Origin: Alphaproteobacteria bacterium
Lineage (GTDB): Bacteria; Pseudomonadota; Alphaproteobacteria; RF32; CAG-239
Direction: 5' to 3'
Length of the DNA: 64,000 nt
NCBI GenBank assembly: GCA_017471705.1
Contig: JAFUSH010000034.1
Span: 43,934 to 107,933 of the forward strand
Shown: in pieces, positions 37,867 through 63,146 of the stretch
Numbering within the stretch: the first letter of the stretch is position 1
Layout of the letters: every line of letters begins with the position of its first letter
Notes under the pieces: generated by a model
Seen by the model: only the letters and a program-made list of their open reading frames with translations
Databases searched by the model: none
Told to the model about the DNA's origin: nothing
Position numbers and translations under genes: made by a program

Positions 37867-37877
37867 ATTTCAAACTC

Positions 37878-39689: not shown

Positions 39690-39698
39690 AATTGCCTT

Positions 39699-42555: not shown

Positions 42556-42571
42556 TTGCTCTCTCCTTAAA

Positions 42572-45143: not shown

Positions 45144-45191
45144 CGTATTTTCCTATAATACACGTTAAAATTGAAATATCAACATCGGATT

Positions 45192-47077: not shown

Positions 47078-47309
47078 TCAATTTAACACTCAAAGAGTAT
47101 ACCGAAGTTAAACAGAGATATATTTCTTATCAGTTTATTAACCTTTTGGTGTTATTCGTGGTGTGTATAACTGGTGTATTGTAGAAATTTTTGTGAAAAT
47201 TCAGATTGATATAGACAAATGGGATATATTTTAACAAAAGTCTGGAAATTTTTTGTAAAATGATTTACAATAACAGTGTGATTAAGAATATATGTTAAGG
47301 AGAACTGAA

Positions 47310-47672
47310 ATGAAATTCTTAAAAAACAACATTATGAGCATTTTGGGTATGACCTTCTTATTTACGATGGTTATGCTGGGCGATGCAAACGCTACGGTGT
47401 TTGAAGATGTAAAAACAAAACTCGTAGATTTGTTCAAAAATGCTAAAATGGTAGTATTTATTATCGGTGGTTTCGGTTTGATTTGTTTGGCTTTCCAAGC
47501 AATCTTCGGAAAAGTTAAATGGGCTTGGTTTGCTGCTCTGGCTTTCGGTTTGGCCGTTGTGGCTGCTGCCGGTGCTATTATTAACTACGCTGCTAATAAC
47601 GATGTTGCTACCGGTAAGAACTTCTCAGATACATTGGGTGACGGTTCCGGTGCATCTAGTATGGGTCATTAA
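47310..47672 (+). CDS. virB2: VirB2/TrbC-family T4SS pilin, paralog 1
   Basis: Signal peptide followed by two hydrophobic helices separated by a short loop (VVFIIGGFGLICLAFQAIFG...WAWFAALAFGLAVVAAAGAI). AAGGAG RBS before the ATG at 47310. Confidence 0.7.
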   Translation: MKFLKNNIMSILGMTFLFTMVMLGDANATVFEDVKTKLVDLFKNAKMVVFIIGGFGLICLAFQAIFGKVKWAWFAALAFGLAVVAAAGAIINYAANNDVATGKNFSDTLGDGSGASSMGH

Positions 47673-47743
47673 TGCCAAGAATGATATTCGGGGGGAGCCC
47701 AGTCTCTCCCCGAATGTGGTAAAATTTTAAGGCGGAGGTAGAT

Positions 47744-48064
47744 ATGTTGTGCAATAGTATAAAGAGATTTTTGTACGAGAACAGATATGCAATTATCTTA
47801 TTTGTTTCTTTATTCTTTTTCATAACCGATGCCTCTGCTGAGACATTCGGTGCATTATCGACTGCCGGCACGGCAATTTTTCAGGGCTTGCGCAAAATTA
47901 TATATCCGGCGGCTACCATAGGTATAGCCTGTGTTTGTATCGGAGGTATGTTCGGCAGTTTTAACTGGAAGTGGTTAGTGGCAATTCTGTTGGGTGTGTT
48001 TATTATAGCCACGGCTAATTCCGGAAACGGTGTGGATGCTATTGCTATGGACGGCAGTAATTAG
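47744..48064 (+). CDS. virB2: VirB2-family pilin, paralog 2
   Basis: The same architecture (signal; ATIGIACVCIGGMFG...WKWLVAILLGVFIIA). GGAGG RBS. Confidence 0.65.
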   Translation: MLCNSIKRFLYENRYAIILFVSLFFFITDASAETFGALSTAGTAIFQGLRKIIYPAATIGIACVCIGGMFGSFNWKWLVAILLGVFIIATANSGNGVDAIAMDGSN

Positions 48065-48074
48065 GAGAATGCAG

Positions 48075-48473
48075 ATGAAAAGAATCGGCGTATTATGTTT
48101 TTTTATTTTAATTTGTTGTGTTGCTTTTGTTTCTCCGGCATTTGCCGAGCCTTCATCCGGTGATGCTATTTGGACTAAATTAGCTGGCAAGGCCAGTACT
48201 ATAGGGGTAGGTTTGCAGAAAAGCGGCTTTATTATAGGCGGTATCGGGTTAATCTTTTTTTCATTTATGGCAATTTTTAACAAGATATCGTGGAAGAATC
48301 TTGCCTATATTATGCTGAGCTGTTTTGTGCTTTCGGCAATGGTTGCATTGGTTAATTATTTTTCGGCAAAAGATGCAACCAGTACGGCTTCGTACTCAGA
48401 ATTTAACGGTCCTGACGGCGAGGTTTCTTTTGAAGGAGGCGTAGCTCCTGCCGGAGGGACGGCGCATAAATAG
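48075..48473 (+). CDS. virB2: VirB2-family pilin, paralog 3
   Basis: Signal MKRIGVLCFFILICCVAFVSPAFA and two hydrophobic helices. RBS AGGAGAATGCAGATG. Confidence 0.65.
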   Translation: MKRIGVLCFFILICCVAFVSPAFAEPSSGDAIWTKLAGKASTIGVGLQKSGFIIGGIGLIFFSFMAIFNKISWKNLAYIMLSCFVLSAMVALVNYFSAKDATSTASYSEFNGPDGEVSFEGGVAPAGGTAHK

Positions 48474-48923: not shown

Positions 48924-49210
48924 GAGAAGAGATTCTGAAAGCGGTTGCGCAACCTCCGAAAGTACTGTGGGCTCCGATGGTACCTGCTCTCATAAATTTA
49001 GGCGTTCAGTTTCCGATGATGTTTATCGGTATGGGTATCGGCGGAGCTAACCCGCTGTATTTTGTTGCTTGTATTATAATTGCGCACGCCGTGTTGGTGG
49101 GGTTGGGAATAAAAGAGCCGCATTTGTCCACAATGCTGCAGGCTTACGGTCAGACATACAGAAAAACAATAAATCTTTATGTGGTAAAGGGTAATAAGTT
49201 TGAGCCATGA
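48920..49210 (+). CDS. virB3: type IV secretion system protein VirB3
   Basis: 96 aa, two TM. LWAPMVPALINLGVQFPMMFIGMGIG is VirB3-like. Translationally coupled to virB4. Confidence 0.75.
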   Translation: MREEILKAVAQPPKVLWAPMVPALINLGVQFPMMFIGMGIGGANPLYFVACIIIAHAVLVGLGIKEPHLSTMLQAYGQTYRKTINLYVVKGNKFEP

Positions 49211-51636
49211 ATGAATACGATTTTTTCAGCATATTTGTGCAAGGATTAAACAATATTCAGGTAGCTGTAACGGTAATAGGTATTATTGCCGCGGCTTCGT
49301 TTTCGGTTTTATTGGTGACCAAATTCGGTAATTGGGTGTTGCCGCAACCGAGAGAATCACGGGTTTCAGACTTTTTGCCGTTTCAAAAATTGATGTCCGA
49401 CGGAGTTACCATTCAATGCAGTAACAATTCCTATGCCCGAGTATTCAGATTAGATGGTGTTGATTTATCATCTGCGACCAACGAAAAAGTATATTCTATG
49501 ATGGAAGCGCGGAAGGCGTGGATTGACGATATGTCAAATATGCAGGTAATATGCCGTATTATAACCACCAGAGACAGAGCTTCGTTGGAAAGTGAAAAAC
49601 GCGACTTCGGTAACAAATTGCTGGAAACTGTTTCAAAAATTTGGTATGAAGGGATGAACCGCGTTTATGAGAACAAACACTATATTGTTCTTTCGGTTAT
49701 TGATCGTAAAGACGCCTTGAAGGATTTGAACTACGCATCTCAAAGTTTGATATCTACATTGGGAGAGTATGGGGTAAGTCCTATGTATGAAAGTGATACC
49801 AGCAGTCCGCTTGATAGTCCGTTTTATTTGTTTTCTCATCTTTGCAGTCCGGTTTCCAAACCGACGCCGAAGGTTCGTAATACCGGCGGGGCGCGGATGT
49901 GCGAAATGCTTACGGCTGACCATATTCATTTTACGGAAGAGGAAGGAATTATTCATTTTTTCTCGGGTGACAGCGATTTGTTCGAAATTGTTATGGGAAT
50001 TCGTGTCAGCGGTGAAGCAATGGATGAAAGTATGATATATTCTTTGAACGCCATTGATTGCGAGTTGGTAATATTGCACAATATCAGACCGTTTTTCAGG
50101 GCTGAGGCCAGAGGTTTGTTAATGCAGCAACAGCGTATGGCAATGACTACGAGTTTGTCGGGAGGAGTGGTGGAGCAATACGCCGCGGCTCTGGCTTCAA
50201 TTGATGACAGTGATAATGACTATCAATCGCTGTGTGAATATTCAATGAGCATAATAGTAAAAGGAGCTTCAAAAGAAGAGTTGGATTTCGGAGAATCTGA
50301 AGTACAAAGAATATGCCGTTCTTTCGGTGTTACTCCGGTTCGGGAAGGCTGGGTAACGCAGGCAGTGTTCTTTACGCAATTTCCGACATACGATACTTAC
50401 CCGAGAACTTATCGCTATCTTTCACGCGTTATAGCTATGGCAATAACTATGGATAAACCTGCCGAAGGCTTCGGAAAAAGCGACTGGGGAAAAGGAGCAA
50501 TTACCATTTTCCGCACAATGTCCGGTTCGGCATATCGTTTCCAATTTCACGTAAGCAGTGAAGAATCGGCAGTGGCTCACTGTTGTATTATCGGTCCTAC
50601 CGGTCAAGGTAAAACAACGTTGTTGACATTTTTGGCCGGTCAGGCGATGCGGCACGGTGATTTGAAAGTGTTCTTCTTTGATCGTCACTTAGGTGCGCAA
50701 ATATTCACTCGAGCCGTTAAGGGAGCATATATCGGTTTTGACGGTGACGAAAAAAATGTTTCGCTTAATCCGTTTGATTGCGCAAATACCGCGGAAAACA
50801 GAGCGTTTTTACGTCGTTGGCTGAAGTCTATTACTATGATTGATGATGCTTTGGCCGATCGCGAAGTTTCTCGTGCGGTTACGACTGCTTTTGATTATTT
50901 ACGTCCGGAAGAACGTTTGTTGAAGAATCTGTATAAAAGTTGCTTTTCTCCGACCGGAAATATGCGCAGAGAGCTGTATCGTTGGGTAAATCCGGATCAA
51001 TACGGAGCTATTTTTAACGGTCAGGATGACAGTTTGGATTTGAAGAGCCGGCGCTTTATGGCTTTCGATTTCACACATATTTTTGAAGATGAGAATTTGG
51101 CTCCGGCGGTAATCAGTTACATTATGCACCGTATTCAAGCCGAAACCGGAGAAACCGGCGTTCCGTCATTGATCATGATTGATGAAACGGCGCCAATGCT
51201 GAAGCACCCGATGTTTAGAGATTATTTCATTATAGGTTTGCAAGAAGGACGTAAGAAACGTCAGGCTTACTTATGTGCGTTCCAACAACCTAACATTGTA
51301 GATAAATTGGGCGTGGGCGAAGTTATTCGCGGTCAATGTCAAACGGTTATTTTCTTCAGAAATCCGCAAGCACAACCCGATGATTATGCTAACTGGAATT
51401 TGACGCAAAATGAGCTTGATTTTATATTCGGTAAGAGTTACCGCGATTTTCCGTATGCCATACTGCTTTCCCGACCTGTTACCGGAGAATCGGTGATATT
51501 GGATGTTAATTTGGGCGGTTTGGGTAAATATCTGCGAGTTTATAACTCAGGTCGTAAGAATGTGTTGTTGGTTCAGCAGCTTATCCAAGAGTACGGCGAA
51601 GATAACTTCCTCACGAAATATTTGGATTTCTCATAA
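49207..51636 (+). CDS. virB4: type IV secretion system ATPase VirB4
   Basis: 809 aa. Walker A IIGPTGQGKTTLL, Walker B LIMIDETAPM, VirB4/CagE/TrbE domain order. Confidence 0.9.
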   Translation: MNEYDFFSIFVQGLNNIQVAVTVIGIIAAASFSVLLVTKFGNWVLPQPRESRVSDFLPFQKLMSDGVTIQCSNNSYARVFRLDGVDLSSATNEKVYSMMEARKAWIDDMSNMQVICRIITTRDRASLESEKRDFGNKLLETVSKIWYEGMNRVYENKHYIVLSVIDRKDALKDLNYASQSLISTLGEYGVSPMYESDTSSPLDSPFYLFSHLCSPVSKPTPKVRNTGGARMCEMLTADHIHFTEEEGIIHFFSGDSDLFEIVMGIRVSGEAMDESMIYSLNAIDCELVILHNIRPFFRAEARGLLMQQQRMAMTTSLSGGVVEQYAAALASIDDSDNDYQSLCEYSMSIIVKGASKEELDFGESEVQRICRSFGVTPVREGWVTQAVFFTQFPTYDTYPRTYRYLSRVIAMAITMDKPAEGFGKSDWGKGAITIFRTMSGSAYRFQFHVSSEESAVAHCCIIGPTGQGKTTLLTFLAGQAMRHGDLKVFFFDRHLGAQIFTRAVKGAYIGFDGDEKNVSLNPFDCANTAENRAFLRRWLKSITMIDDALADREVSRAVTTAFDYLRPEERLLKNLYKSCFSPTGNMRRELYRWVNPDQYGAIFNGQDDSLDLKSRRFMAFDFTHIFEDENLAPAVISYIMHRIQAETGETGVPSLIMIDETAPMLKHPMFRDYFIIGLQEGRKKRQAYLCAFQQPNIVDKLGVGEVIRGQCQTVIFFRNPQAQPDDYANWNLTQNELDFIFGKSYRDFPYAILLSRPVTGESVILDVNLGGLGKYLRVYNSGRKNVLLVQQLIQEYGEDNFLTKYLDFS

Positions 51637-52226: not shown

Positions 52227-53453
52227 ATGATGGTAAATACAAAGAGATTCAATATTTTGGCCGGCGTTGCCTTTATGATAACGTTTGCGGCGCCTGATGC
52301 AAAAGCTTTTCCGTTGCTTTGTGGGGATCCTTCCCGTTTAGTAGCCAGCGCTAAGGTTACAATGCAGGAAATTATGATAATCAAGCAAGAAGTTGAGAGT
52401 AATCTGCGAATCATTGAAGAAATTCGCAACGGTGGCTTTGCCGCAGCCGGTGCGATGATTTTCGAGAAAATTCAAAACGGTGATTATGATCGCTTCGGTA
52501 AAGCTTTGAGTAATGTTAAAACCAATGCGCAGGATATGGCACATAATGTGGCGGAACGTGAAGAAAGAGCTAAAAGGGAAAAAGAGCTGAGAGAAAGCGG
52601 TATGAGCGCTAAAGAAGCTAAGGCTAAGGCTCAACAAGAATCCGCCGAGAGAATGGTAGAATGGCAGAAAAAACAAGACGAAGCCAGAGAAAAAGCTAAA
52701 TCTGAGCGCGGTTCAAACGCTTTTACAAATTCGTATAACTGGCTGAAAAATAATCAATCATTTACCAGCGGCGCCAGCACTGCTTTAAGAGGTGTTGACA
52801 GCGGCAATTGGGGACAGGCTTTAAGCGGTGCGGCAGGTGCCACCGGAGGTGCAATCAACAGCGGCGGCGAATCCACACTCGGAAACATTTTCCAAAATGC
52901 GGCAGGCGGTGCCGGAAATGCTCTGAACAGCGCGCTTGACGGCAATTGGGGTAATGCCTTTAATGCAGCGGCCGGAGGCGCCGGTTCCGCAATTGGCGGC
53001 GCGACTGGATCCGAAGGTATCGGTAATACCATCGGTGCGATTGGTAATATAGGCGCCGGTGCTTATGATGCTATCAGCAGCGGCGATGGTTTCGGCGGTA
53101 CCGTAAATAATTTAATTAATAACAACCAGATAAACTCCGGACTTACCGGTTTAGAGAACGGCTATAATCAAACACAGGAAGAGCGCGAGGCCGCGCTTAA
53201 AGCTCAAGAAGAAGCTGCGAAAAAACAAGCCGAGGAATTAAAAAAAGGATTAGACGAACAGATAAAGAAGGATCAAGAAGAGAGAAAGAAAGAGCAACAG
53301 AAAAAATGTCAGGAATGCCGTAAAAATGCTCAAGCCGGAGCAGAAGCTGCGGCGAAGGCTGCCGGTAAAACGGGATTGGCGGCTCAAGCAGATGCAGAAG
53401 CAAGGGTTAATAGCCAATGTTTAAGTGCTTGCGGTGGTTTTTCAGGTATGTAA
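52227..53453 (+). CDS. secreted coiled-coil / glycine-rich GNWG-repeat protein with C-terminal CxxC...CxxxC motif (paralog A)
   Basis: Signal peptide, an N-terminal coiled coil, two ~47-aa Gly/Ala/Asn repeats (GNWGQALSGAAGATGG...; GNWGNAFNAAAGGAG...), a Lys/Glu coiled coil, and a C-terminal CQEC...CLSACGG. Confidence 0.6.
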   Translation: MMVNTKRFNILAGVAFMITFAAPDAKAFPLLCGDPSRLVASAKVTMQEIMIIKQEVESNLRIIEEIRNGGFAAAGAMIFEKIQNGDYDRFGKALSNVKTNAQDMAHNVAEREERAKREKELRESGMSAKEAKAKAQQESAERMVEWQKKQDEAREKAKSERGSNAFTNSYNWLKNNQSFTSGASTALRGVDSGNWGQALSGAAGATGGAINSGGESTLGNIFQNAAGGAGNALNSALDGNWGNAFNAAAGGAGSAIGGATGSEGIGNTIGAIGNIGAGAYDAISSGDGFGGTVNNLINNNQINSGLTGLENGYNQTQEEREAALKAQEEAAKKQAEELKKGLDEQIKKDQEERKKEQQKKCQECRKNAQAGAEAAAKAAGKTGLAAQADAEARVNSQCLSACGGFSGM

Positions 53454-53465
53454 AGGAGCAAAACA

Positions 53466-54740
53466 ATGAAGAATAAAATATTAAACAGAATCTTATTTTT
53501 AACAGTTATTTCGGTAATGGTATTGCCCCTTCCGTACACAGTATCGGCGCAGACATTTACACCGCCGACTAGTAATGATGATCCGATTGACGGCGGTTCT
53601 ATCGGTGAAGTTGTGGTTACAGGCAAGAAACCTACATATACGGCGAATTTCAGCGGATTTAATCCTACTCCGCTGGATGGAGCAACTATCCCGACCATAA
53701 ATGTTACGGCAACTGCTCCTGCTCCTGTTGTCACTTCAGATGGTAATGATGATCCGATTGACGGCGGTTCTATCGGTGAGGTTGTGGTTACAGGCAAAAA
53801 ACCTACATATACGGCGAATTTCAGCGGTTTCAATCCTACTCCGCTGGATGGAGCAACTATCCCGACCATAAATGTGGGTAATTCTTATGACGGTCCGAGT
53901 GAAGAAGATGGAGAAGAAGGCACTGCAGGTGAGAGCTATACAATGACTTCGACTGTTCGTACGAATGATAACGGTAGTATAAACGAAACTACGGACAGCA
54001 GTTCATTTACAATAACCGACGGCGGAACAGGAAATGGTACAGATTTATCTGCAGCAATCGCCAATGCTGGCGGTAATATAGTTCCGGATCCAACGACTAC
54101 AACTATTAATCCCAGTGATGTAAAAATAGATAATTTACCGCAGCCGACAACTACAACGGTAAAGGAAGAGGAAGATTTAAGTCAGTATACCGGTTTGTAT
54201 AACGGTCGTCAGTTATTACCGGATATTATGGCGAGACATTGCCGAATTAAAGGTGAAGATGTTGCTAAAGATGTAAGTTTGTATGTTGAATGTATCAAAC
54301 AGTATGTTTCGGAAATGAACAGTTCCAATGCGGCGGCAAAAGCTAAAGCTCAGGAAGAATTTGAGATATTGCGTTATAAAGGATTGTTGGATATGGCTTC
54401 CAATGCGATGACCAAGTCGCAAAGTGTTCTCAATTATGAAAACACGATGAACGAATACAATAAAGCTGATCAGGATATGCAGACCGAATTTGACGATAAT
54501 CACGCTTTGATAGCAACAATGTCGTTTATTACCGATGTTATGAACAGTTTCAGAGAACTGCAGGCTGAACAACTTAAGTATTTGGCGATAAGCGGTATTG
54601 TTAACGTTGATCCGGCGGTTGTTTTGGCAGATGAAGAAGAGGAAGAACCGGAAGAAAAGAAACCTGCATCAACAAACGGTAATGCTGGAGATGCGGAAAT
54701 ACATACCACGGAAGCAAATACCACGATTAAACATAATTAA
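53466..54740 (+). CDS. secreted protein with a 57-aa tandem repeat, a Thr-rich linker and a C-terminal helical domain
   Basis: Signal peptide. The unit NDDPIDGGSIGEVVVTGKKPTYTANFSGFNPTPLDGATIPTINV occurs twice. PTTTT linkers and an acidic tail. Confidence 0.6.
   Translation: MKNKILNRILFLTVISVMVLPLPYTVSAQTFTPPTSNDDPIDGGSIGEVVVTGKKPTYTANFSGFNPTPLDGATIPTINVTATAPAPVVTSDGNDDPIDGGSIGEVVVTGKKPTYTANFSGFNPTPLDGATIPTINVGNSYDGPSEEDGEEGTAGESYTMTSTVRTNDNGSINETTDSSSFTITDGGTGNGTDLSAAIANAGGNIVPDPTTTTINPSDVKIDNLPQPTTTTVKEEEDLSQYTGLYNGRQLLPDIMARHCRIKGEDVAKDVSLYVECIKQYVSEMNSSNAAAKAKAQEEFEILRYKGLLDMASNAMTKSQSVLNYENTMNEYNKADQDMQTEFDDNHALIATMSFITDVMNSFRELQAEQLKYLAISGIVNVDPAVVLADEEEEEPEEKKPASTNGNAGDAEIHTTEANTTIKHN
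53571..53876 (+). repeat. two 135-bp near-identical direct repeats (53571-53705 and 53742-53876) inside a coding region
   Basis: About 5 mismatches over 135 bp. The 171-bp period is in frame. Confidence 0.8.
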
Positions 54741-54778
54741 CTGACTGCAGGGAAACTAGAACGGAGGGAGATGGAATT

Positions 54779-56422
54779 ATGAATAAGAGAATGTTAGCAA
54801 TATTCATTGCCGCAGCGCTGGTAGTTTTTCCGAAAACCTCCAAGGCCGATTTGGATGTACTGTCTATTGCCCAAGATCAAATAACGTCAATTACGGAAAA
54901 AGTCGGTGCTATTGTTAAAAAATATACGCAAATTCAAGCAAGTTTGCAGGAATTGAGCTTAAACCGTAATATTGTGTCGCAGTTGAAGGATAAAGTAAAA
55001 TCAGAATTAAAGTCAAGAGCTATGGCTTTTTACGGAGATTTGAAAGATATGGCAATGGCGGAAGGAATGGCATTTCTGAAAACTTCTTTAAGCAGTGTGT
55101 CGTTACCGGGGGTCGGTCAATACATCGATTTGGGAGGCTTTATTAATCCGAAACTGACGGTGGCAGTCGGCAAAACTTATTTAAAGAAAAAGCATAAAAA
55201 GAATGATGTACAAAGTACTGTGGCGCAAGATGAGCGCAGTAACAATCTGATGATAGATAATTTATCTGTTTTATTTGCCAACAGTTTGGTTCGTCGTAAG
55301 CAGATTATAGAAGAAGATCCTTGCAGTTGCGTTGCCGAAGCAGGCAGAGATTGCAGCGAAGAAAAACAAAAATGTGAAGATCAAGAAAAAGAATTTAATG
55401 AAATGAGCGATATCAATGTTGTAAAGAATAAACAGTATGGAGTTATGCTTAACGCTAATCATCGCTGGTTAAAAATTAAAGAAGCGGTTGCAATGTATGC
55501 AAAGATGAAAGGCGAGGCAATGATGAATCAGGGTAATATAGATGATATCAGTGCTATAACCGGTGAAATAGAAGATGAGGAAGAAGAGGATGACACCGGT
55601 GAAGATGCAGTTCAGGCTTTAATGCAAAACAAAATCAATCCGTTGGATTTGACGAATTCAGTGAAAGACAGTTTAAATAAAATTAAAAGCGGCGATTATA
55701 CAGGTGCTTTTGCCGGCGCAATGGGGACAGCTACCGATTTATACGGTAATGCTCCCGGCAGTTGGGATAGTGTTACTAAAGCTATGCAAGAAGTTACCAC
55801 CGGTGCAGGTGCTTTGAATAATGCTTACCATAATGCCGAGAACGGAAACTGGGGCGGCGCGCTTAATTCAGCTTTAGGCGGTGCCGGAAATATTGTAGGA
55901 AGTACCGGTAATGAAGGGTTGGGTAATATATTCAATAATGCCGCCGGAGGAGCCGGAAACGCGCTTAACTCTGCACTTAGCGGAAACTGGGGCGCGGCCA
56001 TAGGCAATGCGGCAGGCGGCGCCGGAAATGCAATCAGCGGTAGCGGTAATGATGTTTTGGGCAGTTCAATCGGTGCGGTCGGAAGTTTAGTTAATGTCGG
56101 AGTAAATGCGGCAAATGCCGGCGGAAATTTAGGCGATATTATTGATAACACCGTGGGCAACAGTCAAGCTCAAGGAGCGTTGAATGCATTGTATGGTGCG
56201 TATGATGCGCAAAATACGCAAAACGCGGCCATTGTAGAAGCTCAGCAAAAAGCGGAAGAAGAACGTAATAAAAAATTTGAAGAAATGAAAAAACAGCAAG
56301 AAGAAGAGATGAAAAAGCGCAAGCAGGCTGAGTGCAAAAAATGCAATGAAGATAATGAAGCTTTGTTAAAAGCGGGCAAGCCGCTATCATCGCTCAAATC
56401 TTGTATCGGTGTTTGTATGTGA
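54779..56422 (+). CDS. secreted coiled-coil / glycine-rich GNWG-repeat protein with C-terminal CxxC...CxxxC motif (paralog B)
   Basis: Signal peptide, a VirB5/TrbJ-like N-terminal coiled coil, a mid Cys cluster CSC...C...C, and GNWGGALNSALGGAGN.../GNWGAAIGNAAGGAGN... repeats that resemble paralog A at the DNA level. C-terminal CKKC...CIGVC. Confidence 0.6.
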   Translation: MNKRMLAIFIAAALVVFPKTSKADLDVLSIAQDQITSITEKVGAIVKKYTQIQASLQELSLNRNIVSQLKDKVKSELKSRAMAFYGDLKDMAMAEGMAFLKTSLSSVSLPGVGQYIDLGGFINPKLTVAVGKTYLKKKHKKNDVQSTVAQDERSNNLMIDNLSVLFANSLVRRKQIIEEDPCSCVAEAGRDCSEEKQKCEDQEKEFNEMSDINVVKNKQYGVMLNANHRWLKIKEAVAMYAKMKGEAMMNQGNIDDISAITGEIEDEEEEDDTGEDAVQALMQNKINPLDLTNSVKDSLNKIKSGDYTGAFAGAMGTATDLYGNAPGSWDSVTKAMQEVTTGAGALNNAYHNAENGNWGGALNSALGGAGNIVGSTGNEGLGNIFNNAAGGAGNALNSALSGNWGAAIGNAAGGAGNAISGSGNDVLGSSIGAVGSLVNVGVNAANAGGNLGDIIDNTVGNSQAQGALNALYGAYDAQNTQNAAIVEAQQKAEEERNKKFEEMKKQQEEEMKKRKQAECKKCNEDNEALLKAGKPLSSLKSCIGVCM

Positions 56423-56439
56423 TAAGGGAGGACAAGGGT

Positions 56440-57705
56440 ATGAAAAAATATAATAAAAAGATTTTAATACTTGTAGCCGTTTCTTATCTGTCGGTGACTG
56501 CTCCGGCAATGGCTGTAACCAAATTGGAAGCTACAGGACCGGCTGCCGATATTGTTAACAAAATTCAGAAAGTTAAAGAAAAGTTCGAAGATATTCAAAC
56601 AAAGATAATGAAGGAGAAGGAAAAGTGGACCAAAAAGGCAGAGGCTTTCTTGGATAAAACACTTGGAACCGAAGGCGCGGCTTTGTTTAAGCAATATGTT
56701 GTAGAACCGGGAGCCGGTATTGTTAAAAGTGTTGCTAAAGGTCAGTATAACGCAGGTGATTTCAGTTTAAGCGGGTTTACCAGCGCCATAAAATCGGAAC
56801 TTGGCAATTACAAACTTGATTTTGCAACTTTGGTGTCGCAAGCAAAAGATATGGCTAATACTGCGGCCAAAGCCAGACTTGAAAAGAGCAGAGCCATTGA
56901 AATTCAAGTTGCTAAGCTGCAATCTGAATGGGATGCAAAGAATAATCTTAATGCAACCGTGAAGTCGGCTCAGTTGGAAGCAGAACTTGAAGAATTGGCT
57001 AAAAGAATATCTGGATTGAAAGAGCAAGCGGCTCAACTAAACAATAAGACGCTTGAGGAAACCGAAGCTCAAAAGAAAATGCAGGAAAAGATGGTGGCAA
57101 TGCAGGATTTGATGGCAAGTTACAGCGGTAAAATATCTCAGGATGATTTACTTAAAAAACTTAATGCCGAGGCAATGTCATTGTTCACGCTTAAAACCGA
57201 TGAAGAAGAAGATCAGGCGATATATTCTGCCAGTATGGAAAAGCTGTTTTTAGGTAAGTATGATTTCGGAACATCTGAGAATTTGGCGAGAATTCGCCGC
57301 GCTCGTCAGGAAGAATATTATAAGTCCGAAAAGAATATTCTCAAAGTTATTGTCGAAACTTATAACAGTATTGAAAATACCGAACAAAACATAAAAGGCT
57401 GTACGCAGGCAAGCGGAGAAGCACAGGCTATATTCGGCGGCAGTGCTATGCGTGTATGTGTCGATGTTCAGATAATAAAGATAGCAGCACAATATATGGA
57501 AATGTTATTGGCGCAAATTCAACAGGAAGCCAGTTTGGAGATTCAAAACTGGGCGGATATATACAAATTACCGGATTACAACCGTGATTATACCAAGTTT
57601 AATTTGGATGATTACGTTCTGACCAAAGATGACCTGAAAAAGAATTTGAAAAGTATGGCAACCGGAGCCATCGGTGATGCAATGATGAAATTTAAAGGTT
57701 TTTAA
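56440..57705 (+). CDS. secreted coiled-coil protein (421 aa)
   Basis: Signal MKKYNKKILILVAVSYLSVTAPAMA. GGGAGG RBS before the ATG at 56440. Long helical heptad regions and two Cys. Confidence 0.55.
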   Translation: MKKYNKKILILVAVSYLSVTAPAMAVTKLEATGPAADIVNKIQKVKEKFEDIQTKIMKEKEKWTKKAEAFLDKTLGTEGAALFKQYVVEPGAGIVKSVAKGQYNAGDFSLSGFTSAIKSELGNYKLDFATLVSQAKDMANTAAKARLEKSRAIEIQVAKLQSEWDAKNNLNATVKSAQLEAELEELAKRISGLKEQAAQLNNKTLEETEAQKKMQEKMVAMQDLMASYSGKISQDDLLKKLNAEAMSLFTLKTDEEEDQAIYSASMEKLFLGKYDFGTSENLARIRRARQEEYYKSEKNILKVIVETYNSIENTEQNIKGCTQASGEAQAIFGGSAMRVCVDVQIIKIAAQYMEMLLAQIQQEASLEIQNWADIYKLPDYNRDYTKFNLDDYVLTKDDLKKNLKSMATGAIGDAMMKFKGF

Positions 57706-57717
57706 GAGAGGTGTGAA

Positions 57718-60700
57718 ATGAAGAAAATAGTTTATTTTATATCCGTTTTAATGACTTGCCTTTGTCTTAACCGCAATGCGCAGGCGTTTGTATGGCCGGA
57801 TTTTACGCCTCTGATTCCGTTTTCTCCGCAATTTTGCGTTATGTGTATTCCACCGGCGATTGATTGGGCATATAATACCGTTGACCAAGTTAAAGATGCG
57901 AAGAATCGTTTGAAAGAAATGACCGACGTGACCAAAATTAAACAGGCGCTTTCGGCATATGCGGCAAATCTCGGAAATATGGCGCTTAATTGGGCAACAC
58001 AAAAATTATCCGCACGCAAAAAAGTTATATCGTATTCCCGTACCATTATGGATAGTGAGCGCGAGGGAGTGGATGTAAAAAAAGAAGATTCGGTTAAAGT
58101 TGATTTCGTAAATCTGTTTTTGCAGTATCCTTCGACTAAAAATAAAATAAAGAAAGCATATCAGAAAAAAGGAGATGCCATTAAAACCGATACATCTCTT
58201 GAGATGTACATTACCGCTTCCGAAATGATGAAAGAATTATGCGGTGCTAAGGGTAAAGGATGCGAATTAGCAACTACTTTAGCAGATTACGACGGAGATG
58301 TAAGCACCGAATTTAAAGATTTTAAAGATATGGGAATGATGTTGCAATTAAGTCTGGTTGAGCAATGCTTTATGCAAGGTCAATATTGTGGTTTAATCGG
58401 TACAATCGGTTGCGAGCCGGGTAAAGATGGAGACAGTAGTGCGGAGCCGTCGGAAGAACAACCGACAGAGGGAGAAAGCACCGATGAAGATAAGGTTTGT
58501 CACTGGAAGGCCAGTTTGCAGCTAGCCCGTATGTATGATAAAATTATGCGCTACAATGAAATGCTTGTTTATATGCAGTATCAGTATGAAGCTGTTAAAG
58601 GTATTGATACTCTGGCAAAAATCAGAGCTGCTAAAGAAAATGAAGGTACTAAGGGTGAGCAAGGTGCTTTTCTTATGGATAAATATTTGCCGCAAAAGAA
58701 AAATGTGGCCTACAGCACATTATCAGACACTTTTGCGTTTGCCGATGAAGAACTCACAGATGAAGATTTAGAAGAGTTTTCTAAATATGAAAAAAGTATG
58801 TCCAATCGCGAAAATGTATTGGGCGGCAACTTTGAAACTCTTAAAGAAGCAAAAGGTTTTGAAACGGTTTTGGATGATAAAAAAGATGATCTTGCCAGTA
58901 TGCAATTTTTGGAAGAAACCAATAAAGCACTGAAAGATGCATTGGTATATCACAATATGAAACAGATGTTGCCCGATTACAGAGGCACATTTAAAACTTT
59001 AAAACAAGCCGAGGAATATCACGATAAGACTGTGGAATATTTACAGGATTCCGGCGAATGTATAAAGGGATATTTGGAACCTCATTACAATAATCCTGCT
59101 AAAGTGTGGTTTGGTGAAGGGTGTGATTATTTTGACCAAGGAACCATATATTGTCACTATTCACCGGAAAAAGAAATAAATGACAGTGAGGAAAGCAAAG
59201 GTTTGTATGATGAGCTGTGTCCGGACAATCCTCAATATAAGTGTTTTATTCAAAAACTGGAAGAAAGCGATATGAATAAAGGTGTTGCCGGAGCTTTGTT
59301 AGCTTTTTATAATGAAGGCAAAACAGCTGATGCGTTGCAGGAAACTCAGACTTATCTCAAAGAGGGCGAACAGTCACCGGAAGTTGAAACAGAAAAAACT
59401 TCGGAAAAGTCATATACCGCTCAGGTTACCATAGAAGGCGGAGATGAGGTTTCCGGAGATAAAGAAACGTATGTTACCGGTCGTGATGATTCTGCGATGA
59501 TGGGCAGGGATAACGCCAATGCCTCAGATGTGTTGCCGAGTGCCAGTTCGGTTCAAGCAAAAGCAAAGACTACTCGTGATGATCAGGAAGCCGATGAAAA
59601 TATAAAAGATCCTAAGGCTGCCGAGAGTTTGGCCGATGAGACACGGAAAGGACACCTGATGAATTGGATATGGGGTGCTACTATGGCTAATGTCATTTCT
59701 GCCGATTTAGACAGTTCTTCTCCAAAATTCGGAACACGTAAAAATAAGTTTCCGTTATGGAATGACCAGAAAGAGTTTTATGACCAATATATTGACGGCA
59801 AATATGATAACATTTCTCAATATATGGAAAGAGCTCCGATGCCTGATGGTATTATGAGTGCTGCCGAGGCGATAAACGAAGTGTATAATTATCCTGAGAT
59901 AGTTAAAGAAATAAAAGATGCGTTAGGCAATGTAACGGATACGATTACGGTGACTAAAGATGAACAGCAGGGATTTATAGCTGATGCTATAGAAGCTGTT
60001 AAGGATGATTTTAAGGATGTAAAAGACGAAACAAAAGAAACAATGGACAGCTTGATTGAAACGGAAACGGCTGAGCTTGAGGCGTTAAAAGCAGAACATA
60101 ATGCCAAGATTAGTAAATTATTGGAAGAAAAAGAATTGCTTCAGAGCCGTTTGGGACAAACCAATAGGGATTTGGATGCCGCAAATCAGGCATTTAATAA
60201 TGCCGGAGGAAAAATAGCTTCTTCAGTAAATACCGACAGAGCAACTAAGGAAAATGACGAAGCGAATAGAGAATTGCAGGCTAAGTACCGCAATCCGGTG
60301 GATTTATCCCAATCTCCGGCAAATAAGAAATTTGCGGGGATGAAGGCGGAAAGCGCAGAAAACAAAAAAGCTGCCGAAGCCGAACTTAAAGCCAAAGAAA
60401 AAGAAGCTCAAAACTTGGAAAAGAGTTCGGAAATGTTGGCTAAGTTGCTGAAGGCTAAAAAAGAAGAAATTGAAAAAGAACGCCGTCAGTTTGTTAAAAA
60501 ATACAGCGAAGCCGAAGAAAATGCCCGCAACGGATTTAATGATAAGGTGGAAGCTTATCTGGAAGAAGGTGTCGTTCTGAAAGATGAAGATGTCACTGCT
60601 ACTATTGAAAATGCAATAGTAAGAGCATCTGAGAAACTTTCCAAAGAGTTGTCAAGTCAGTATGGTACGGCGATTTCTATTGAACTGCCGACTGTAGCAG

Positions 60701-62379
60701 CAAGCGGAGCCGGACAAATGATTGCCTGTCTGCGTGAAAAAGCATCGCAAACTGCCAAAGATACGAAAGAGCAGGATATGAATTCGCTGAAAGCAAACGG
60801 CAAAATATATTATAATGAGTATGCGCCGGATGTTACGAATAAACACAACTCAATGATTAATAAAATGAAGAGTATAAGCGAATGTGCAATCGAAGGCGTA
60901 CCTTCCGAACCTATAGCCGAAAAAGTTTTCGGAGATATGTGCGATTCCGTTAATTGTACTACTCCTGATTTAAGCAAAGACGAAAACGGTTTGATAAATT
61001 ATTTTGTCGGTGCTTTGGGTGTAAGAGATGACTTGAAGGCTCCTACTCCGCCGGTAGCATTTTCATCGGCGCCGATGCGTGAAATTTTCCACTTTGATAT
61101 TGCTGACTACGAAAGTATTGAGAAGTATTACGAAGATGATGAGCCGAAAAATCCGAGCAGTTCGGATATTACCATAACGGCAGAAGGTTTCTTGAAGTTG
61201 GGTGAGGATATGCAATCCGGTCAAAAAGAGGCACAACAGAAATTGGAAAATCAAGGCGAAGTGGCCGGAACATTCCCTGAAATATGGAAGTATGTATTGA
61301 GACGTCATACTTACGGTCAAAAACAATTTGATCTAAAGAGGCTGTTGGGCAGTAAGGAATTAGGTGATGATGTTCGCGGTAATCCGGATAAGAGTTATTT
61401 GCGTTCAGGCAGTTTCCCTTGTTATATTGATAACAATGTAATTGATGCTTCGGCGGTGGTTAAATTGGTAGGTTTCAGACTTGTCCCGAATAATTTCAGC
61501 TATTCGATAAACAGTACGCCGGATAAGGATTTGTATACTAAAGTTCCGTGTAAAGGGTTGTTGATTAAAAAAGGAAGAGTGTTTGATTTTACGGCTGACG
61601 GAAGTCCACCTAACGGCGTACCTGTAAACGGTGAAGGAAGTATCAGCGAAACCAGTGAATTAGGAACTATTTTAGGATATGTTCCTGACGCAAACAATAA
61701 TATAGTGCGAGTTCTATTCGGTCACGGAATACCTACGGATATGAGCAAGGCTCCGCGTAAGCTGACATTTAATTCTACGCTGCAAAAAGCTGTGAATATT
61801 ATTTCCGAAACGGAAGAATTAGGCGAAGATAAAAGTAAAGATGCGGTATTCTATATGGCTAACCGCACCTTGCTTGACCGCAATCAGTTCGGTGATTATT
61901 TAAATCAGGTAGAGCAAGAAGCTATAGCGCGTGAATCTTTGGCGAAAATTCAAAACCAGATAGATGAGATATTGACAAATCTGCAAGATGTTTTTTACGG
62001 CACCGGTATTGTTATATCTGATGAGTTTAATTTACTGAATGATGATGATTATAAAGAGGCTGCCGAGGCTTTGGATGAACAAAAGCAAATATATCTTAAC
62101 AGAGCCGAAACGGAAATTCAAAAAGTTAAGGGTGTTTCCGAGACGGTAAAAAACAAGACGGAAACGCTTTTGAAGACCATTGCCGTTTTACGTGCGGATA
62201 GCGATGAAATTATTCATTTGAACGGCGGTGAGGATATAAATCAGGTTAAGTCCAGAATAGCCAATCAGAGTGCTGATAATTCGGTCGGAGATGAATATGA
62301 AAAAATGGGTGACGAAGCTCATCTGCGCCGGATAAGAGATTTACAGCCTCCTTTCTGTGAAGTTCATCCTTATAAATAA
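57718..62379 (+). CDS. giant secreted cysteine-rich coiled-coil protein (1553 aa)
   Basis: Signal MKKIVYFISVLMTCLCLNRNAQA. About 24 Cys, many in CxxC/Cx(n)C pairs. A central ~400-aa Lys/Glu coiled coil. No TM helices. Confidence 0.6.
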   Translation: MKKIVYFISVLMTCLCLNRNAQAFVWPDFTPLIPFSPQFCVMCIPPAIDWAYNTVDQVKDAKNRLKEMTDVTKIKQALSAYAANLGNMALNWATQKLSARKKVISYSRTIMDSEREGVDVKKEDSVKVDFVNLFLQYPSTKNKIKKAYQKKGDAIKTDTSLEMYITASEMMKELCGAKGKGCELATTLADYDGDVSTEFKDFKDMGMMLQLSLVEQCFMQGQYCGLIGTIGCEPGKDGDSSAEPSEEQPTEGESTDEDKVCHWKASLQLARMYDKIMRYNEMLVYMQYQYEAVKGIDTLAKIRAAKENEGTKGEQGAFLMDKYLPQKKNVAYSTLSDTFAFADEELTDEDLEEFSKYEKSMSNRENVLGGNFETLKEAKGFETVLDDKKDDLASMQFLEETNKALKDALVYHNMKQMLPDYRGTFKTLKQAEEYHDKTVEYLQDSGECIKGYLEPHYNNPAKVWFGEGCDYFDQGTIYCHYSPEKEINDSEESKGLYDELCPDNPQYKCFIQKLEESDMNKGVAGALLAFYNEGKTADALQETQTYLKEGEQSPEVETEKTSEKSYTAQVTIEGGDEVSGDKETYVTGRDDSAMMGRDNANASDVLPSASSVQAKAKTTRDDQEADENIKDPKAAESLADETRKGHLMNWIWGATMANVISADLDSSSPKFGTRKNKFPLWNDQKEFYDQYIDGKYDNISQYMERAPMPDGIMSAAEAINEVYNYPEIVKEIKDALGNVTDTITVTKDEQQGFIADAIEAVKDDFKDVKDETKETMDSLIETETAELEALKAEHNAKISKLLEEKELLQSRLGQTNRDLDAANQAFNNAGGKIASSVNTDRATKENDEANRELQAKYRNPVDLSQSPANKKFAGMKAESAENKKAAEAELKAKEKEAQNLEKSSEMLAKLLKAKKEEIEKERRQFVKKYSEAEENARNGFNDKVEAYLEEGVVLKDEDVTATIENAIVRASEKLSKELSSQYGTAISIELPTVAASGAGQMIACLREKASQTAKDTKEQDMNSLKANGKIYYNEYAPDVTNKHNSMINKMKSISECAIEGVPSEPIAEKVFGDMCDSVNCTTPDLSKDENGLINYFVGALGVRDDLKAPTPPVAFSSAPMREIFHFDIADYESIEKYYEDDEPKNPSSSDITITAEGFLKLGEDMQSGQKEAQQKLENQGEVAGTFPEIWKYVLRRHTYGQKQFDLKRLLGSKELGDDVRGNPDKSYLRSGSFPCYIDNNVIDASAVVKLVGFRLVPNNFSYSINSTPDKDLYTKVPCKGLLIKKGRVFDFTADGSPPNGVPVNGEGSISETSELGTILGYVPDANNNIVRVLFGHGIPTDMSKAPRKLTFNSTLQKAVNIISETEELGEDKSKDAVFYMANRTLLDRNQFGDYLNQVEQEAIARESLAKIQNQIDEILTNLQDVFYGTGIVISDEFNLLNDDDYKEAAEALDEQKQIYLNRAETEIQKVKGVSETVKNKTETLLKTIAVLRADSDEIIHLNGGEDINQVKSRIANQSADNSVGDEYEKMGDEAHLRRIRDLQPPFCEVHPYK

Positions 62380-62390
62380 AGGTAGGTAAA

Positions 62391-63146
62391 TTGGTTGAAT
62401 TAGGCAGAATAGAAGTAAAAAAGAAATTGATAGCCGGAAACTATCCTTCTCAGAGGCAGAATGATAGTCAGGTTCAGTTTTTATCAGAACTCAGTGAGGC
62501 CGATAGATCATCAAAAGAAGTCTATTTTCGTTGGTTATCTCGTTTGGTTATGCTCTGTGCCGTTGTGTCATTAAGTTTCTTTTTGAGCTCGTCATTGGTA
62601 ATATTCAGATTGGCTCCGGAGATTATTGTGGAGCCATTGCTGCTGATAAGGCAAAATGATTCGGAAAGTATGGTGAGATATGAGCCGATTACTACTAAGA
62701 TGCCGTCAATTCGCCAATTTACGGAGATGTTTATAAGACAATATGTTATTATGCGTAATACGGTTATTAATGATGAACAAGAGATGCGTACGCGCTGGGG
62801 ACCCGGAGGAATTGTCCATTATTTATCAATGCCGGATGTGTATGCTGATTTTGTGGGCTTAAATGCGGAATCCGTCAATAATATGTTTGATGACGGATAT
62901 TCCAGTGAAGTTCGGATAAATGAACTGGAAAAAGAGGAAACAAGTCCGGCGTGGTCAGTGATATTTACGGTTTACAACTTATCTAAAGATCGCAGCAGCA
63001 GCGGATCGCTCACTCTTAAAACGCAGCGATATAAAGCATCCATAACTCCTAAATTTATTCCTGAACGCAGTATGTACAGAGCACGTTTGATTAATCCGCT
63101 CGGCTTTACGGTTATAAAATATAATCAGAGCGAGATAAGAGAGTAA
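62391..63146 (+). CDS. virB8: type IV secretion system protein VirB8 (paralog a); possible TTG start
   Basis: A cytoplasmic N-terminus, a single TM (LVMLCAVVSLSFFLSSSLVIF) and a periplasmic NTF2-like domain with FTEMFIRQYVIMRNTV. Confidence 0.7.
   Translation: MVELGRIEVKKKLIAGNYPSQRQNDSQVQFLSELSEADRSSKEVYFRWLSRLVMLCAVVSLSFFLSSSLVIFRLAPEIIVEPLLLIRQNDSESMVRYEPITTKMPSIRQFTEMFIRQYVIMRNTVINDEQEMRTRWGPGGIVHYLSMPDVYADFVGLNAESVNNMFDDGYSSEVRINELEKEETSPAWSVIFTVYNLSKDRSSSGSLTLKTQRYKASITPKFIPERSMYRARLINPLGFTVIKYNQSEIRE

What the first reader, a model, noticed from the sequence alone, without database searches (positions are those of the whole stretch)
53571..53876. Near-perfect in-frame 135-bp tandem duplication inside a secreted-protein gene
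Two 135-bp copies (about 96% identical) are separated by 36 bp and encode a duplicated 45-aa NDDPIDGGSIGEVVVTGKKPTYTANFSGFNPTPLDGATIPTINV module. High identity implies a recent duplication, or concerted evolution. Such in-frame repeats in surface proteins are classic contingency loci for size variation.
Basis: seen in the sequence. Interest (0 to 1): 0.55.

Follow-up and report, generated by a model that had tools for sequence, protein, structure and literature searches.

The report
Duplicated Ton-box-like module in T4SS protein
A real, in-frame duplication doubles a short, conserved "Ton-box-like" peptide in the floppy front end of a secreted protein of unknown family that always sits inside a type IV secretion gene cluster of uncultured rumen Alphaproteobacteria. 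It looks like a fixed, selected change in motif number, not a fast-switching size-variation locus.

Summary
Window 53571-53705 and 53742-53876 are 135-nt in-frame copies (6 mismatches; the 133-nt core is 97% identical), 171 nt (57 codons) apart, inside ORF 53466-54740 (424 aa, signal peptide).

The gene is the second ORF after virB4 in a chromosomal type IV secretion (T4SS) plus type IVb pilus locus. This locus is syntenic across uncultured rumen Alphaproteobacteria.

- **Selection:** five of the six differences between copies are synonymous (pN 0.01, dS about 0.17), so both copies are under purifying selection.
- **Age:** independent assemblies differ by only 2 bases in 20.5 kb, so the duplication long predates the split of the sampled strains.
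- **Copy number:** the two assemblies whose DNA I read through the repeat have two copies, and a third broke at the repeat. The 65%-identical ortholog has one copy.
- **Motif:** each copy carries GEVVVTG in a region predicted to be disordered. The motif (aliphatic-x-E-V-V-[VI]-T-[GPA]) recurs 1-5 times in this rare family (22 observed, 0.45 expected). In orthologs it is identical to a published Bacteroides SusC Ton box (DEVVVTG).
- **Family:** the conserved helical domain matches no Pfam, PDB or VirB5 profile.

The "contingency locus" reading is not supported. Selected doubling of a binding motif is my best explanation. Binding to TonB is untested.

The parts
53466..54740 (+). ORF of 424 aa carrying the duplication. 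Secreted protein of an uncharacterised family, second gene after virB4.
   Evidence: AGGAG at 53454-53458 lies 7 nt upstream of the ATG. No Pfam, NCBIfam or PDB sequence match.
53466..53549 (+). Predicted Sec signal peptide (residues 1-28, ...TVSA|QTF).
   Evidence: Hydrophobic segment at residues 4-22. Ala28 is nearly invariant in the alignment of homologs. Read from the sequence; no signal-peptide predictor was available.
53571..53705 (+). Repeat copy 1 (residues 36-80, SNDDPIDGGSIGEVVVTGKKPTYTANFSGFNPTPLDGATIPTINV).
   Evidence: The only two differences from assembly L001 in 20.5 kb lie here: 53595 G>T (Gly44Cys) and 53643 G>A (Ala60Thr).
53604..53624 (+). Ton-box-like heptapeptide GEVVVTG, instance 1 (residues 47-53).
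   Evidence: DEVVVTG is the Ton box of Bt1763 (PMC7782687).
53706..53741 (+). Unique 36-nt spacer between the copies (TATAPAPVVTSD).
   Evidence: No other match in the window. No similarity to the sequence flanking either copy.
53742..53876 (+). Repeat copy 2 (residues 93-137).
   Evidence: Identical in the window and L001. In L002 the stretch from 53705 to 53831 is replaced by a 100-N scaffold gap.
53775..53795 (+). Ton-box-like heptapeptide GEVVVTG, instance 2 (residues 104-110).
53931..54014 (+). Conserved beta-hairpin segment (residues 156-183, ESYTMTSTVRTNDNGSINETTDSSSFTI).
   Evidence: Conserved block in alignment A2. Predicted strands 156-168 and 171-183, pLDDT about 65.
54174..54635 (+). 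Conserved C-terminal helical domain (residues about 237-390) with two invariant cysteines (Cys259, Cys276). This is the family-defining core.
   Evidence: Alignments A2 and A3. AlphaFold2 model pLDDT 86.5, pTM 0.71, long helices. 111 representatives in 1.84 billion proteins.
47292..48473 (+). Context: three consecutive TrbC/VirB2 pilin paralogs.
49207..51636 (+). Context: VirB4 ATPase (809 aa).
52227..53453 (+). Context: first unknown secreted protein after virB4 (408 aa).
54779..62379 (+). Context: three further unknown signal-peptide proteins (547 aa; 434 aa as listed here, called as 421 aa in L001; 1553 aa) before virB8. None has transmembrane segments beyond the signal peptide.
62391..63146 (+). 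Context: VirB8.
   Evidence: In L001 it is followed by a 62-aa ORF, a second VirB8 and CagX/VirB9.
36745..45143 (-). Context: divergently oriented type IVb pilus genes (T2SSF, T2SSE ATPase, PilO, secretin, TcpQ).
   Evidence: The same arrangement occurs in L001, L005 and L016.

Best explanation
A 57-codon unit was duplicated in frame in the N-terminal region of a Sec-exported accessory protein of a chromosomal type IV secretion system (T4SS). The unit is a 45-codon module plus a 12-codon spacer. This region is predicted to be intrinsically disordered and is evolutionarily hypervariable.

The duplication is fixed in this lineage, and both copies are kept by purifying selection. Its effect is to present two copies instead of one of a short, beta-strand-prone linear motif (aliphatic-x-E-V-V-[VI]-T-[GPA]; here SIGEVVVTGKKPTYTANF). 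The motif sits on a flexible Thr/Pro/Gly-rich tether ahead of the conserved, disulfide-containing helical domain, which presumably anchors the protein in or on the T4SS.

My inference is that the motif binds a partner by strand addition, as Ton boxes do. The number of motif copies would then tune avidity or reach.

**Shown:** the duplication, its frame, its presence in independent assemblies, the synonymous-only divergence, the conserved locus, the motif's recurrence and enrichment, and the disorder prediction.

**Inferred:** binding by strand addition, the avidity rationale, the surface or pilus-associated location, and the identity of the partner (TonB of another cell, own TonB, or a T4SS or pilus component).
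For: - **Real, in frame and reproducible.**. Assembly L001, from another sample, has the same two copies with the same diagnostic differences.
- **Purifying selection.** Of 6 differences, 5 are synonymous. pS is 0.149, pN is 0.0099, and P(at least 5 of 6 synonymous under neutrality) = 0.0046.
- **Lineage-specific gain.** The ortholog P0002 has one module in two assemblies.
- **Functional motif.** The regex [DEQ][VI][VI][VI][TK][GAP] occurs 22 times in 14 of 122 family proteins, against 0.45 expected (maximum 4 in 500 shuffles). The residue two positions before it is aliphatic in all but one instance.
- **Motif placement.** It occurs on either side of the helical domain and at extreme C-termini (P0047, P0052, P0023).
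- **Independent amplification.** Modules carrying the motif have multiplied separately: P0018 has 3 diverged copies (23 of 52 identical), P0023 has 2 (31 of 76), and P0051 has 5 tandem 22-aa units.
- **Motif specificity.** In 471,000 six-frame residues of all fetched loci, it is found in long ORFs only in this gene family.
- **Disorder.** pLDDT is 30-37 over residues 18-153.
- **Ton-box identity.** DEVVVTG is the annotated Ton box of the B. thetaiotaomicron SusC-like protein Bt1763 (PMC7782687). P0002 and P0020 carry LDEVVVTG.
- **T4SS linkage.** The same gene order holds from 65% down to about 30% identity.
Against: - No binding partner is known, and nothing here tests binding.
- Most family members (about 108 of 122) lack the motif, so it is an optional accessory.
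- Close relatives swap the whole N-terminal module for unrelated ones (L011/L012 vs P0013). The region may therefore simply tolerate change.
- The selection test rests on only 6 substitutions.
- The disorder call comes from a low-confidence model built on a shallow alignment of that region.
- A heptapeptide identity with a Ton box can arise by convergence on a generic beta-strand sequence.
- The only two differences between assemblies are non-synonymous and lie in copy 1. This fits either relaxed or diversifying selection on that copy, or assembly noise.
Confidence: 0.6

Rival explanations
1. Contingency locus: the repeat is a hot spot for RecA- or slippage-mediated gain and loss. The protein would change length at high frequency within populations.
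For: - Two 95.6-97% identical copies in direct orientation can recombine.
- The number of motif copies differs between lineages of the family (1-5).
- P0051 has five near-identical tandem 22-aa units.
- One assembly broke exactly at the repeat, so its copy number is unknown.
Against: - There are only two copies, separated by a unique 36-nt spacer, and the longest identical run is 44 nt.
- Both assemblies read through the repeat have two copies, and the 424-aa two-copy protein is on record on 4 contigs.
- dS of about 0.17 between copies, against about 1e-4 between strains, shows long-term stability.
- The single-copy state is stable in two assemblies of the sister lineage.
Confidence: 0.1
2. 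Assembly artefact: either a spurious duplication, or a longer array collapsed to two copies by short-read metagenome assembly.
For: - Scaffold L002 has a 100-N gap running from the end of copy 1 into copy 2.
- The only 2 differences in 20,535 nt between the window and L001 fall in copy 1 (P about 4e-5 if placed at random). A collapsed extra copy or mixed reads could produce this.
Against: - The copies carry six fixed diagnostic differences and different unique flanks.
- The reading frame is preserved.
- The window and L001, from a separate sample, give the same structure base for base outside the two SNPs. The protein collection lists the identical 424-aa product on three contigs (P0024).
- The L001 variant bases are not those of copy 2, so they are not simple cross-mapping.
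Confidence: 0.07
3. Neutral spacer growth: the duplication merely lengthens a disordered stalk in a region that tolerates any insertion, and the motif has no specific function.
For: - The region is hypervariable and modular. Many homologs lack the module or carry unrelated ones.
- It is predicted to be disordered.
Against: - Five of six differences between copies are synonymous.
- The motif is conserved across about 40%-identical proteins, enriched about 50-fold, and independently amplified.
Confidence: 0.15
4. Diversity-generating or cassette mechanism: one copy acts as template for directed mutagenesis or conversion of the other.
For: The two differences between assemblies are both non-synonymous and both lie in copy 1.
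Against: - Differences between the copies are not adenine-specific: A/G, A/G, G/A, A/T, T/C and T/G.
- They are almost all synonymous.
- No reverse transcriptase appeared among the window ORFs scanned. The scan did not cover every small ORF.
Confidence: 0.03

Closest known systems
VirB5 / TraC / TrwJ / CagL minor pilins (T4SS tip or stalk proteins, Pfam PF07996)
   Same: - Sec-exported.
- Encoded just downstream of virB4.
- The minimal family members are 211-230 aa, like VirB5.
- The core is an elongated helical bundle.
- Variable appended regions, as expected for a contact protein.
- CagL appears among the non-significant fold matches.
   Different: - No sequence or profile similarity: no Pfam hit in 31 members, and hhalign against an alignment of three plasmid VirB5s gives probability 0.09%.
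- Foldseek finds nothing significant (E of 0.4 or more).
- It is the second, not the first, ORF after virB4.
- It has an invariant cysteine pair.
Ton box of TonB-dependent transporters (for example Bt1763 82-DEVVVTG-88)
   Same: - Orthologs carry the identical heptapeptide LDEVVVTG. The window has GEVVVTG (6 of 7 residues).
- The motif lies in a flexible region near a free terminus.
   Different: - No plug or beta-barrel domain follows.
- The motif can be repeated or C-terminal.
- Binding to TonB is untested.
N-terminal intrinsically unstructured translocation domains of TonB-dependent bacteriocins (colicin M, pyocins S2/SD2)
   Same: A Gly/Pro-rich disordered N-terminus with a Ton-box-type motif within the first 10-25 mature residues (PMC4964976). 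Here the motif sits at mature positions 19-25, and at 9-15 in P0013, P0014 and P0020.
   Different: - No receptor-binding or cytotoxic domain was detected.
- The protein is a conserved member of a T4SS operon, not a bacteriocin-immunity pair.
Tandem-repeat surface proteins with copy-number variation (for example streptococcal alpha C/Rib; from my own knowledge)
   Same: In-frame repeats of a protein module in a secreted protein.
   Different: - Those have many identical, contiguous repeats and documented size variation.
- Here there are two copies at 95.6% identity with a unique spacer, and no variation was observed.
Rickettsiales vir homolog (rvh) T4SS organisation
   Same: - A chromosomal, apparently vertically inherited T4SS.
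- Paralogous scaffold genes: three virB2, and two virB8 flanking a small ORF.
- A run of five genes between virB4 and virB8, and no detectable VirB5.
   Different: The five rvh genes are polytopic VirB6 paralogs (PMC2653234). Here the five proteins have no transmembrane segment beyond the signal peptide.

Membership tests
VirB5/TraC/TrbJ (PF07996) | Significant sequence or profile match to VirB5 family models | tested here: not met
   No PF07996 hit at E<=10 in 21 + 10 members. hhalign of A3 vs a 3-sequence VirB5 alignment gives probability 0.09%. No PDB sequence hit.
VirB5/TraC/TrbJ (PF07996) | Fold: three-helix bundle with globular appendage, superposable on TraC or CagL | tested here: inconclusive
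   A confident helical-bundle model (pLDDT 86.5), but Foldseek finds nothing at E<0.4. CagL (3zcj) has E 2.5, probability 0.18.
VirB5/TraC/TrbJ (PF07996) | Signal peptide and a gene position directly after virB4 | tested here: inconclusive
   A signal peptide is present. The gene is the second ORF after virB4 in every locus.
Ton box (TonB-dependent transporters and bacteriocins) | Heptapeptide matching a documented Ton box | tested here: met
   DEVVVTG is the Bt1763 Ton box (PMC7782687). P0002 and P0020 have DEVVVTG, and the window has GEVVVTG twice.
Ton box (TonB-dependent transporters and bacteriocins) | Located in a flexible segment that can extend as a strand | tested here: met
   pLDDT is 30-37 across residues 18-153. 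The motif lies near the mature N-terminus, or at the C-terminus in other members. This is a prediction only.
Ton box (TonB-dependent transporters and bacteriocins) | Binds the TonB C-terminal domain by beta-strand addition | not testable with these tools
   No complex prediction or binding assay was available.
Ton box (TonB-dependent transporters and bacteriocins) | Attached to a plug/barrel, or to bacteriocin receptor-binding and killing domains | tested here: not met
   No Plug, TonB_dep_Rec or bacteriocin domains in any member.
Contingency / variable tandem-repeat surface protein | Array of several contiguous, near-identical units | tested here: not met
   Two copies at 95.6% identity with a unique 36-nt spacer. 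TRF reports no array.
Contingency / variable tandem-repeat surface protein | Copy number differs among closely related strains | tested here: inconclusive
   The window and L001 have two copies, and the full-length 424-aa protein is on record on 4 contigs. One further assembly is unresolved. All are at least 99.99% identical, so the sample is almost clonal.
Diversity-generating retroelement target | Adenine-specific differences between template and variable repeat | tested here: not met
   The six differences are A/G, A/G, G/A, A/T, T/C and T/G.

The most novel reading that the evidence does not exclude
The family is a previously undescribed T4SS or pilus contact protein whose flexible end carries a mimic of the Ton box used by outer-membrane transporters. 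In orthologs the mimic is identical to the Bacteroides SusC Ton box.

Like the disordered translocation domains of TonB-dependent bacteriocins, the end would thread through an outer-membrane protein of a neighbouring Gram-negative cell (rumen Bacteroidota, for example). There it would engage that cell's TonB, using the target's own energy to dock or breach its envelope. The number of motif copies (1-5; two here) would set the efficiency.
Probability: 0.1. Interest if true: 0.8.

Novelty: new member of a known kind. Interest (0 to 1): 0.42.

Why it matters
The duplication itself is an ordinary event: a module duplicated in a variable secreted protein. Checking it brought three things to light.

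1. A rare, unannotated protein family (111 representatives among 1.84 billion proteins). It is a fixed part of a T4SS plus type IVb pilus locus in uncultured rumen Alphaproteobacteria.
2. That locus has five unknown secreted proteins where VirB5, VirB6 and VirB7 normally lie.
3. A mobile short linear motif has been amplified independently in several lineages. It is identical to a documented Ton box.

If the motif does engage TonB or another envelope protein, this would be a new way for a secretion system to recognise or exploit a target cell. It would also give a handle on what these rumen T4SSs are for.

Tried and rejected
- **Family assignment failed.**
  - Pfam and NCBIfam scans of the protein and its neighbours gave nothing, and Pfam scans of 31 family members gave nothing either.
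  - PDB sequence searches with two profiles found nothing.
  - Foldseek against PDB (two models) and against BFVD found nothing significant.
  - hhalign against an alignment of plasmid VirB5s gave no match, for the family or for any of the neighbours.
  - hhalign against the proteins in the VirB5 position of Microvirga plasmid pMVF16-3 (the closest VirB4 among plasmids, 37%) gave no match.
- **tblastn** of the protein against PLSDB plasmids: no match.
- **Module-only search** of the 5.8-billion protein set returned nothing for technical reasons: no candidate shared three words. That search was wasted. An earlier attempt failed on a parameter limit.
- **Exact look-ups** of the window protein and of P0024 in the contig index: not on record, although the identical sequence P0024 is listed in the cluster table.
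- **First GTDB scan** with the single protein: nothing. The scan with the alignment found only two rumen MAGs. The JGI metagenome scan found five loci, none from the window lineage. More strains to test copy number could therefore not be found.
- **The third homolog search**, using the domain alignment, added few sequences.
- **DGR reading rejected:** the mismatches are not adenine-specific.
- **LPXTG or PEP-CTERM-like sorting signals rejected:** the spacing is wrong, no transmembrane stretch follows, and the host is Gram-negative (read from the sequence).
- **VirB6 identity for the neighbours rejected:** they have no transmembrane segments.
- **Literature:** no paper in the library links a Ton box with T4SS or VirB5.

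Full report
**1. The observation**

The repeat is real. The repeat finder reports 53572-53704 and 53743-53875 as a 133-nt direct repeat at 97% identity, spaced 171 nt apart.

Read in the frame of ORF 53466-54740 (+, 424 aa), the two copies are 45 codons each: 53571-53705 and 53742-53876. They differ at six positions: 53571, 53609, 53627, 53657, 53660 and 53705. The encoded peptides are identical except for the first residue (Ser36/Gly93).

The 36 nt between the copies encode TATAPAPVVTSD and match nothing else in the window. Similarity ends abruptly on both sides of the core. Tandem Repeats Finder does not list the repeat, because it has only two units with a non-homologous spacer.

**2. Is it an artefact, and does the copy number vary?**

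The protein collection holds three versions of this protein on five contigs.

- **P0024** is identical to the window protein. It is NCBI MBQ8481883.1, a MAG labelled 'Alphaproteobacteria bacterium', and is found on three contigs.
- **P0001** comes from an ENA assembly of another sample (locus L001).
- **P0025** (288 aa) comes from a third sample (locus L002).

L001 is identical to window 43466-64000 except for two bases. Both lie in copy 1 and both are non-synonymous: 53595 G>T (Gly44Cys) and 53643 G>A (Ala60Thr). The chance that two random differences both land in copy 1 is about 4e-5.

L002 is 100% identical on both sides. A 100-N scaffold gap replaces 53705-53831, so the assembler broke exactly at the repeat. 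The gene call there is truncated for that reason.

So the two-copy structure is reproducible: the DNA of two assemblies was read through the repeat, and the full-length protein is on record on four contigs. One further assembly is unresolved. All of these genomes are almost clonal. Short-read difficulty at this site is real, so a collapsed third copy cannot be excluded without the reads.

Scans of GTDB genomes and JGI metagenomes found no other strain of this lineage.

**3. Age and selection**

Five of the six differences between copies are synonymous. pS is 0.149, dS (Jukes-Cantor) is 0.166, and pN is 0.0099. The probability of at least five of six being synonymous under neutrality is 0.0046.

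Strains of this organism differ by about 1e-4 per site. The duplication is therefore far older than the sampled strain diversity. It is still younger than the split from the nearest ortholog: P0002 (65% identity, from a roe-deer rumen MAG) has a single module in two assemblies.

Synonymous differences persist across the whole unit, which argues against recent gene conversion. The longest perfectly identical run between copies is 44 nt, so the substrate for unequal recombination is modest (my inference).

**4. The gene and its locus**

The window is chromosomal. It carries aroK, rph, addAB-like genes, murJ, tyrS and uvrA.

The gene lies in a T4SS cluster with this order:
- three TrbC/VirB2 paralogs;
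- a 146-aa ORF and a 96-aa ORF;
- VirB4;
- five ORFs with signal peptides and no family match (408 aa; 424 aa, the target; 547 aa; about 421-434 aa; 1553 aa);
- VirB8, a 62-aa ORF, a second VirB8, and CagX/VirB9.

A type IVb pilus cluster lies divergently upstream: TcpQ, secretin, PilO, a T2SSE ATPase and T2SSF.

This order is conserved in loci whose target-family protein is only 65%, 41% and about 30-35% identical (L003/L004, L005-L007, L016/L017). All come from uncultured gut or rumen Alphaproteobacteria.

None of the five unknown proteins has a transmembrane segment beyond the signal peptide, so they are not VirB6 paralogs of the rvh type. None resembles VirB5 by hhalign.

**5. The protein family**

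An hmmsearch of the family profile against 1.84 billion representative proteins finds only 111 members.

The conserved core is a domain of about 160-200 aa with two invariant cysteines (Cys259 and Cys276 here). With 99 sequences, AlphaFold2 models it confidently as an elongated helical bundle (pLDDT 86.5, pTM 0.71).

Minimal members are 211-230 aa: a signal peptide plus this domain. Others add variable regions on the N-terminal side (the window's clade) or the C-terminal side.

No test placed the domain in a known family:
- no Pfam, NCBIfam or PDB sequence match;
- no significant Foldseek match (best E 0.4; CagL at E 2.5);
- hhalign against plasmid VirB5s gives probability 0.09%.

It resembles VirB5 in size, export, helical nature and neighbourhood. 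It fails the homology tests, so I do not file it as VirB5.

**6. The variable region and the motif**

The N-terminal region is modular. Relatives carry Cys-rich modules, a beta-rich module, or the EVVVTG module. Proteins with nearly identical C-terminal halves carry different N-terminal modules (L011/L012 vs P0013).

In the full-length model, residues 18-153 have pLDDT 30-37. I read this as disorder, with the caveat that the alignment is shallow there.

The conserved core of the duplicated module is aliphatic-x-E-V-V-[VI]-T-[GPA]. In the window's subgroup it is followed by K-x-P-T-Y-x-A-N-F. The motif occurs 22 times in 14 of 122 family proteins, against 0.45 expected from shuffles.

It appears before or after the helical domain, and at the very C-terminus in three proteins. 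It is multiplied independently in other lineages:
- three diverged copies in P0018;
- two in P0023;
- five tandem 22-aa units in P0051.

In all fetched loci it occurs in real ORFs only in this family. Diverged multi-copy versions elsewhere show that extra copies are retained over long periods. That fits selection on the number of motifs, not transient slippage.

**7. Resemblance to a Ton box**

The Ton box of the B. thetaiotaomicron SusC-like transporter Bt1763 is given as 82-DEVVVTG-88 (PMC7782687). That heptapeptide is present exactly in P0002 and P0020. The window has GEVVVTG twice.

TonB-dependent bacteriocins place a Ton box in a disordered, Gly/Pro-rich N-terminal translocation domain (PMC4964976). 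Here the motif sits 19-25 residues from the predicted mature N-terminus, and 9-15 residues in P0013, P0014 and P0020.

This is a lead, not a test. No plug, barrel or bacteriocin domain is present. TonB binding could not be examined. No paper in the library connects Ton boxes with T4SS. The motif may bind some other envelope partner by strand addition.

**8. Verdict**

- **Observation:** confirmed.
- **Interpretation:** partly supported. It is a lineage-specific in-frame duplication in a secreted protein. The evidence points to an old, fixed, selectively maintained doubling of a binding motif, not to a contingency locus.
- **Interest:** the duplication itself is ordinary. The interest lies in the uncharacterised T4SS-linked family and its Ton-box-like, copy-number-variable motif.

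Noticed in passing
window 53595 and 53643 (vs L001 10130 and 10178): The only two differences in 20,535 aligned bases between the window and an independent assembly are both non-synonymous (Gly44Cys, Ala60Thr). Both lie in repeat copy 1. The cause could be real microdiversity, a collapsed extra copy, or consensus error.
   Followed up: partly
L002 2859-2958 (= window 53705-53831): A third assembly has a 100-N scaffold gap exactly between the end of copy 1 and the last 44 nt of copy 2. The gene is therefore mis-called there as a 288-aa protein (P0025).
   Followed up: yes
window 52227-53453 and 54779-56422: The ORFs either side of the target (408 aa and 547 aa) are paralogs over about 200 C-terminal residues (37-40% identity). 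They contain 69-nt (23-aa) Gly/Ala/Asn-rich 'GNWG...AAGGAGNALNSAL' repeats (52829-53001; 55858-55983) and Cys-containing C-termini. No family match.
   Followed up: partly
window 52227-62379: Five consecutive signal-peptide proteins, one of 1553 aa, occupy the place of virB5, virB6 and virB7 between virB4 and virB8. None has transmembrane helices or resembles VirB5. No VirB6 was found in the window.
   Followed up: partly
window 47292-48473; L001 18926-20783: Three tandem VirB2/TrbC pilin paralogs, and two VirB8 genes flanking a 62-aa ORF. This paralogy is reminiscent of the Rickettsiales rvh T4SS.
   Followed up: no
window 36745-46841 (- strand): A type IVb pilus cluster (T2SSF, T2SSE ATPase, PilO, secretin, TcpQ, plus a 549-aa unknown ORF) lies head-to-head with the T4SS operon. 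The pairing is conserved in L001, L005 and L016.
   Followed up: partly
L005 8144-19699 vs L006: Two strains of a related species differ by 91 substitutions. These are clustered in the 3' end of virB4, the C-terminal part of the first unknown gene, and the fourth gene (13-37 per kb). The target-family gene and the others are nearly identical (0-3 per kb). The pattern looks like mosaic recombination tracts.
   Followed up: partly
L011 1017-2378 / L012 2968-4329 vs P0013: Proteins with almost identical C-terminal halves carry entirely different N-terminal modules: a beta-rich 'SYSVRNING...' module vs the EVVVTG module. This indicates cassette-like swapping of the N-terminal region.
   Followed up: partly
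P0051 residues about 460-567; P0047, P0052 and P0023 C-termini: A distant family member has five tandem 22-aa repeats, each containing LPEVVITP. Three others end in ...C-x-[LIM]-DEVV[VI]T[GA] plus a few lysines, directly after Cys-rich modules.
   Followed up: partly
window 53384-53869 (- strand): A 161-aa antisense ORF spans both repeat copies. It is the mirror image of the repeat and is most likely not a gene.
   Followed up: no
L015 (Microvirga sp. VF16 plasmid pMVF16-3, 671942-674392): The closest VirB4 in the plasmid collection (37% identity over 94%) belongs to a compact virB-like operon on a 731-kb plasmid, where it is annotated 'hypothetical protein'. The proteins in the VirB5 position there are unrelated to the family studied here.
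   Followed up: yes
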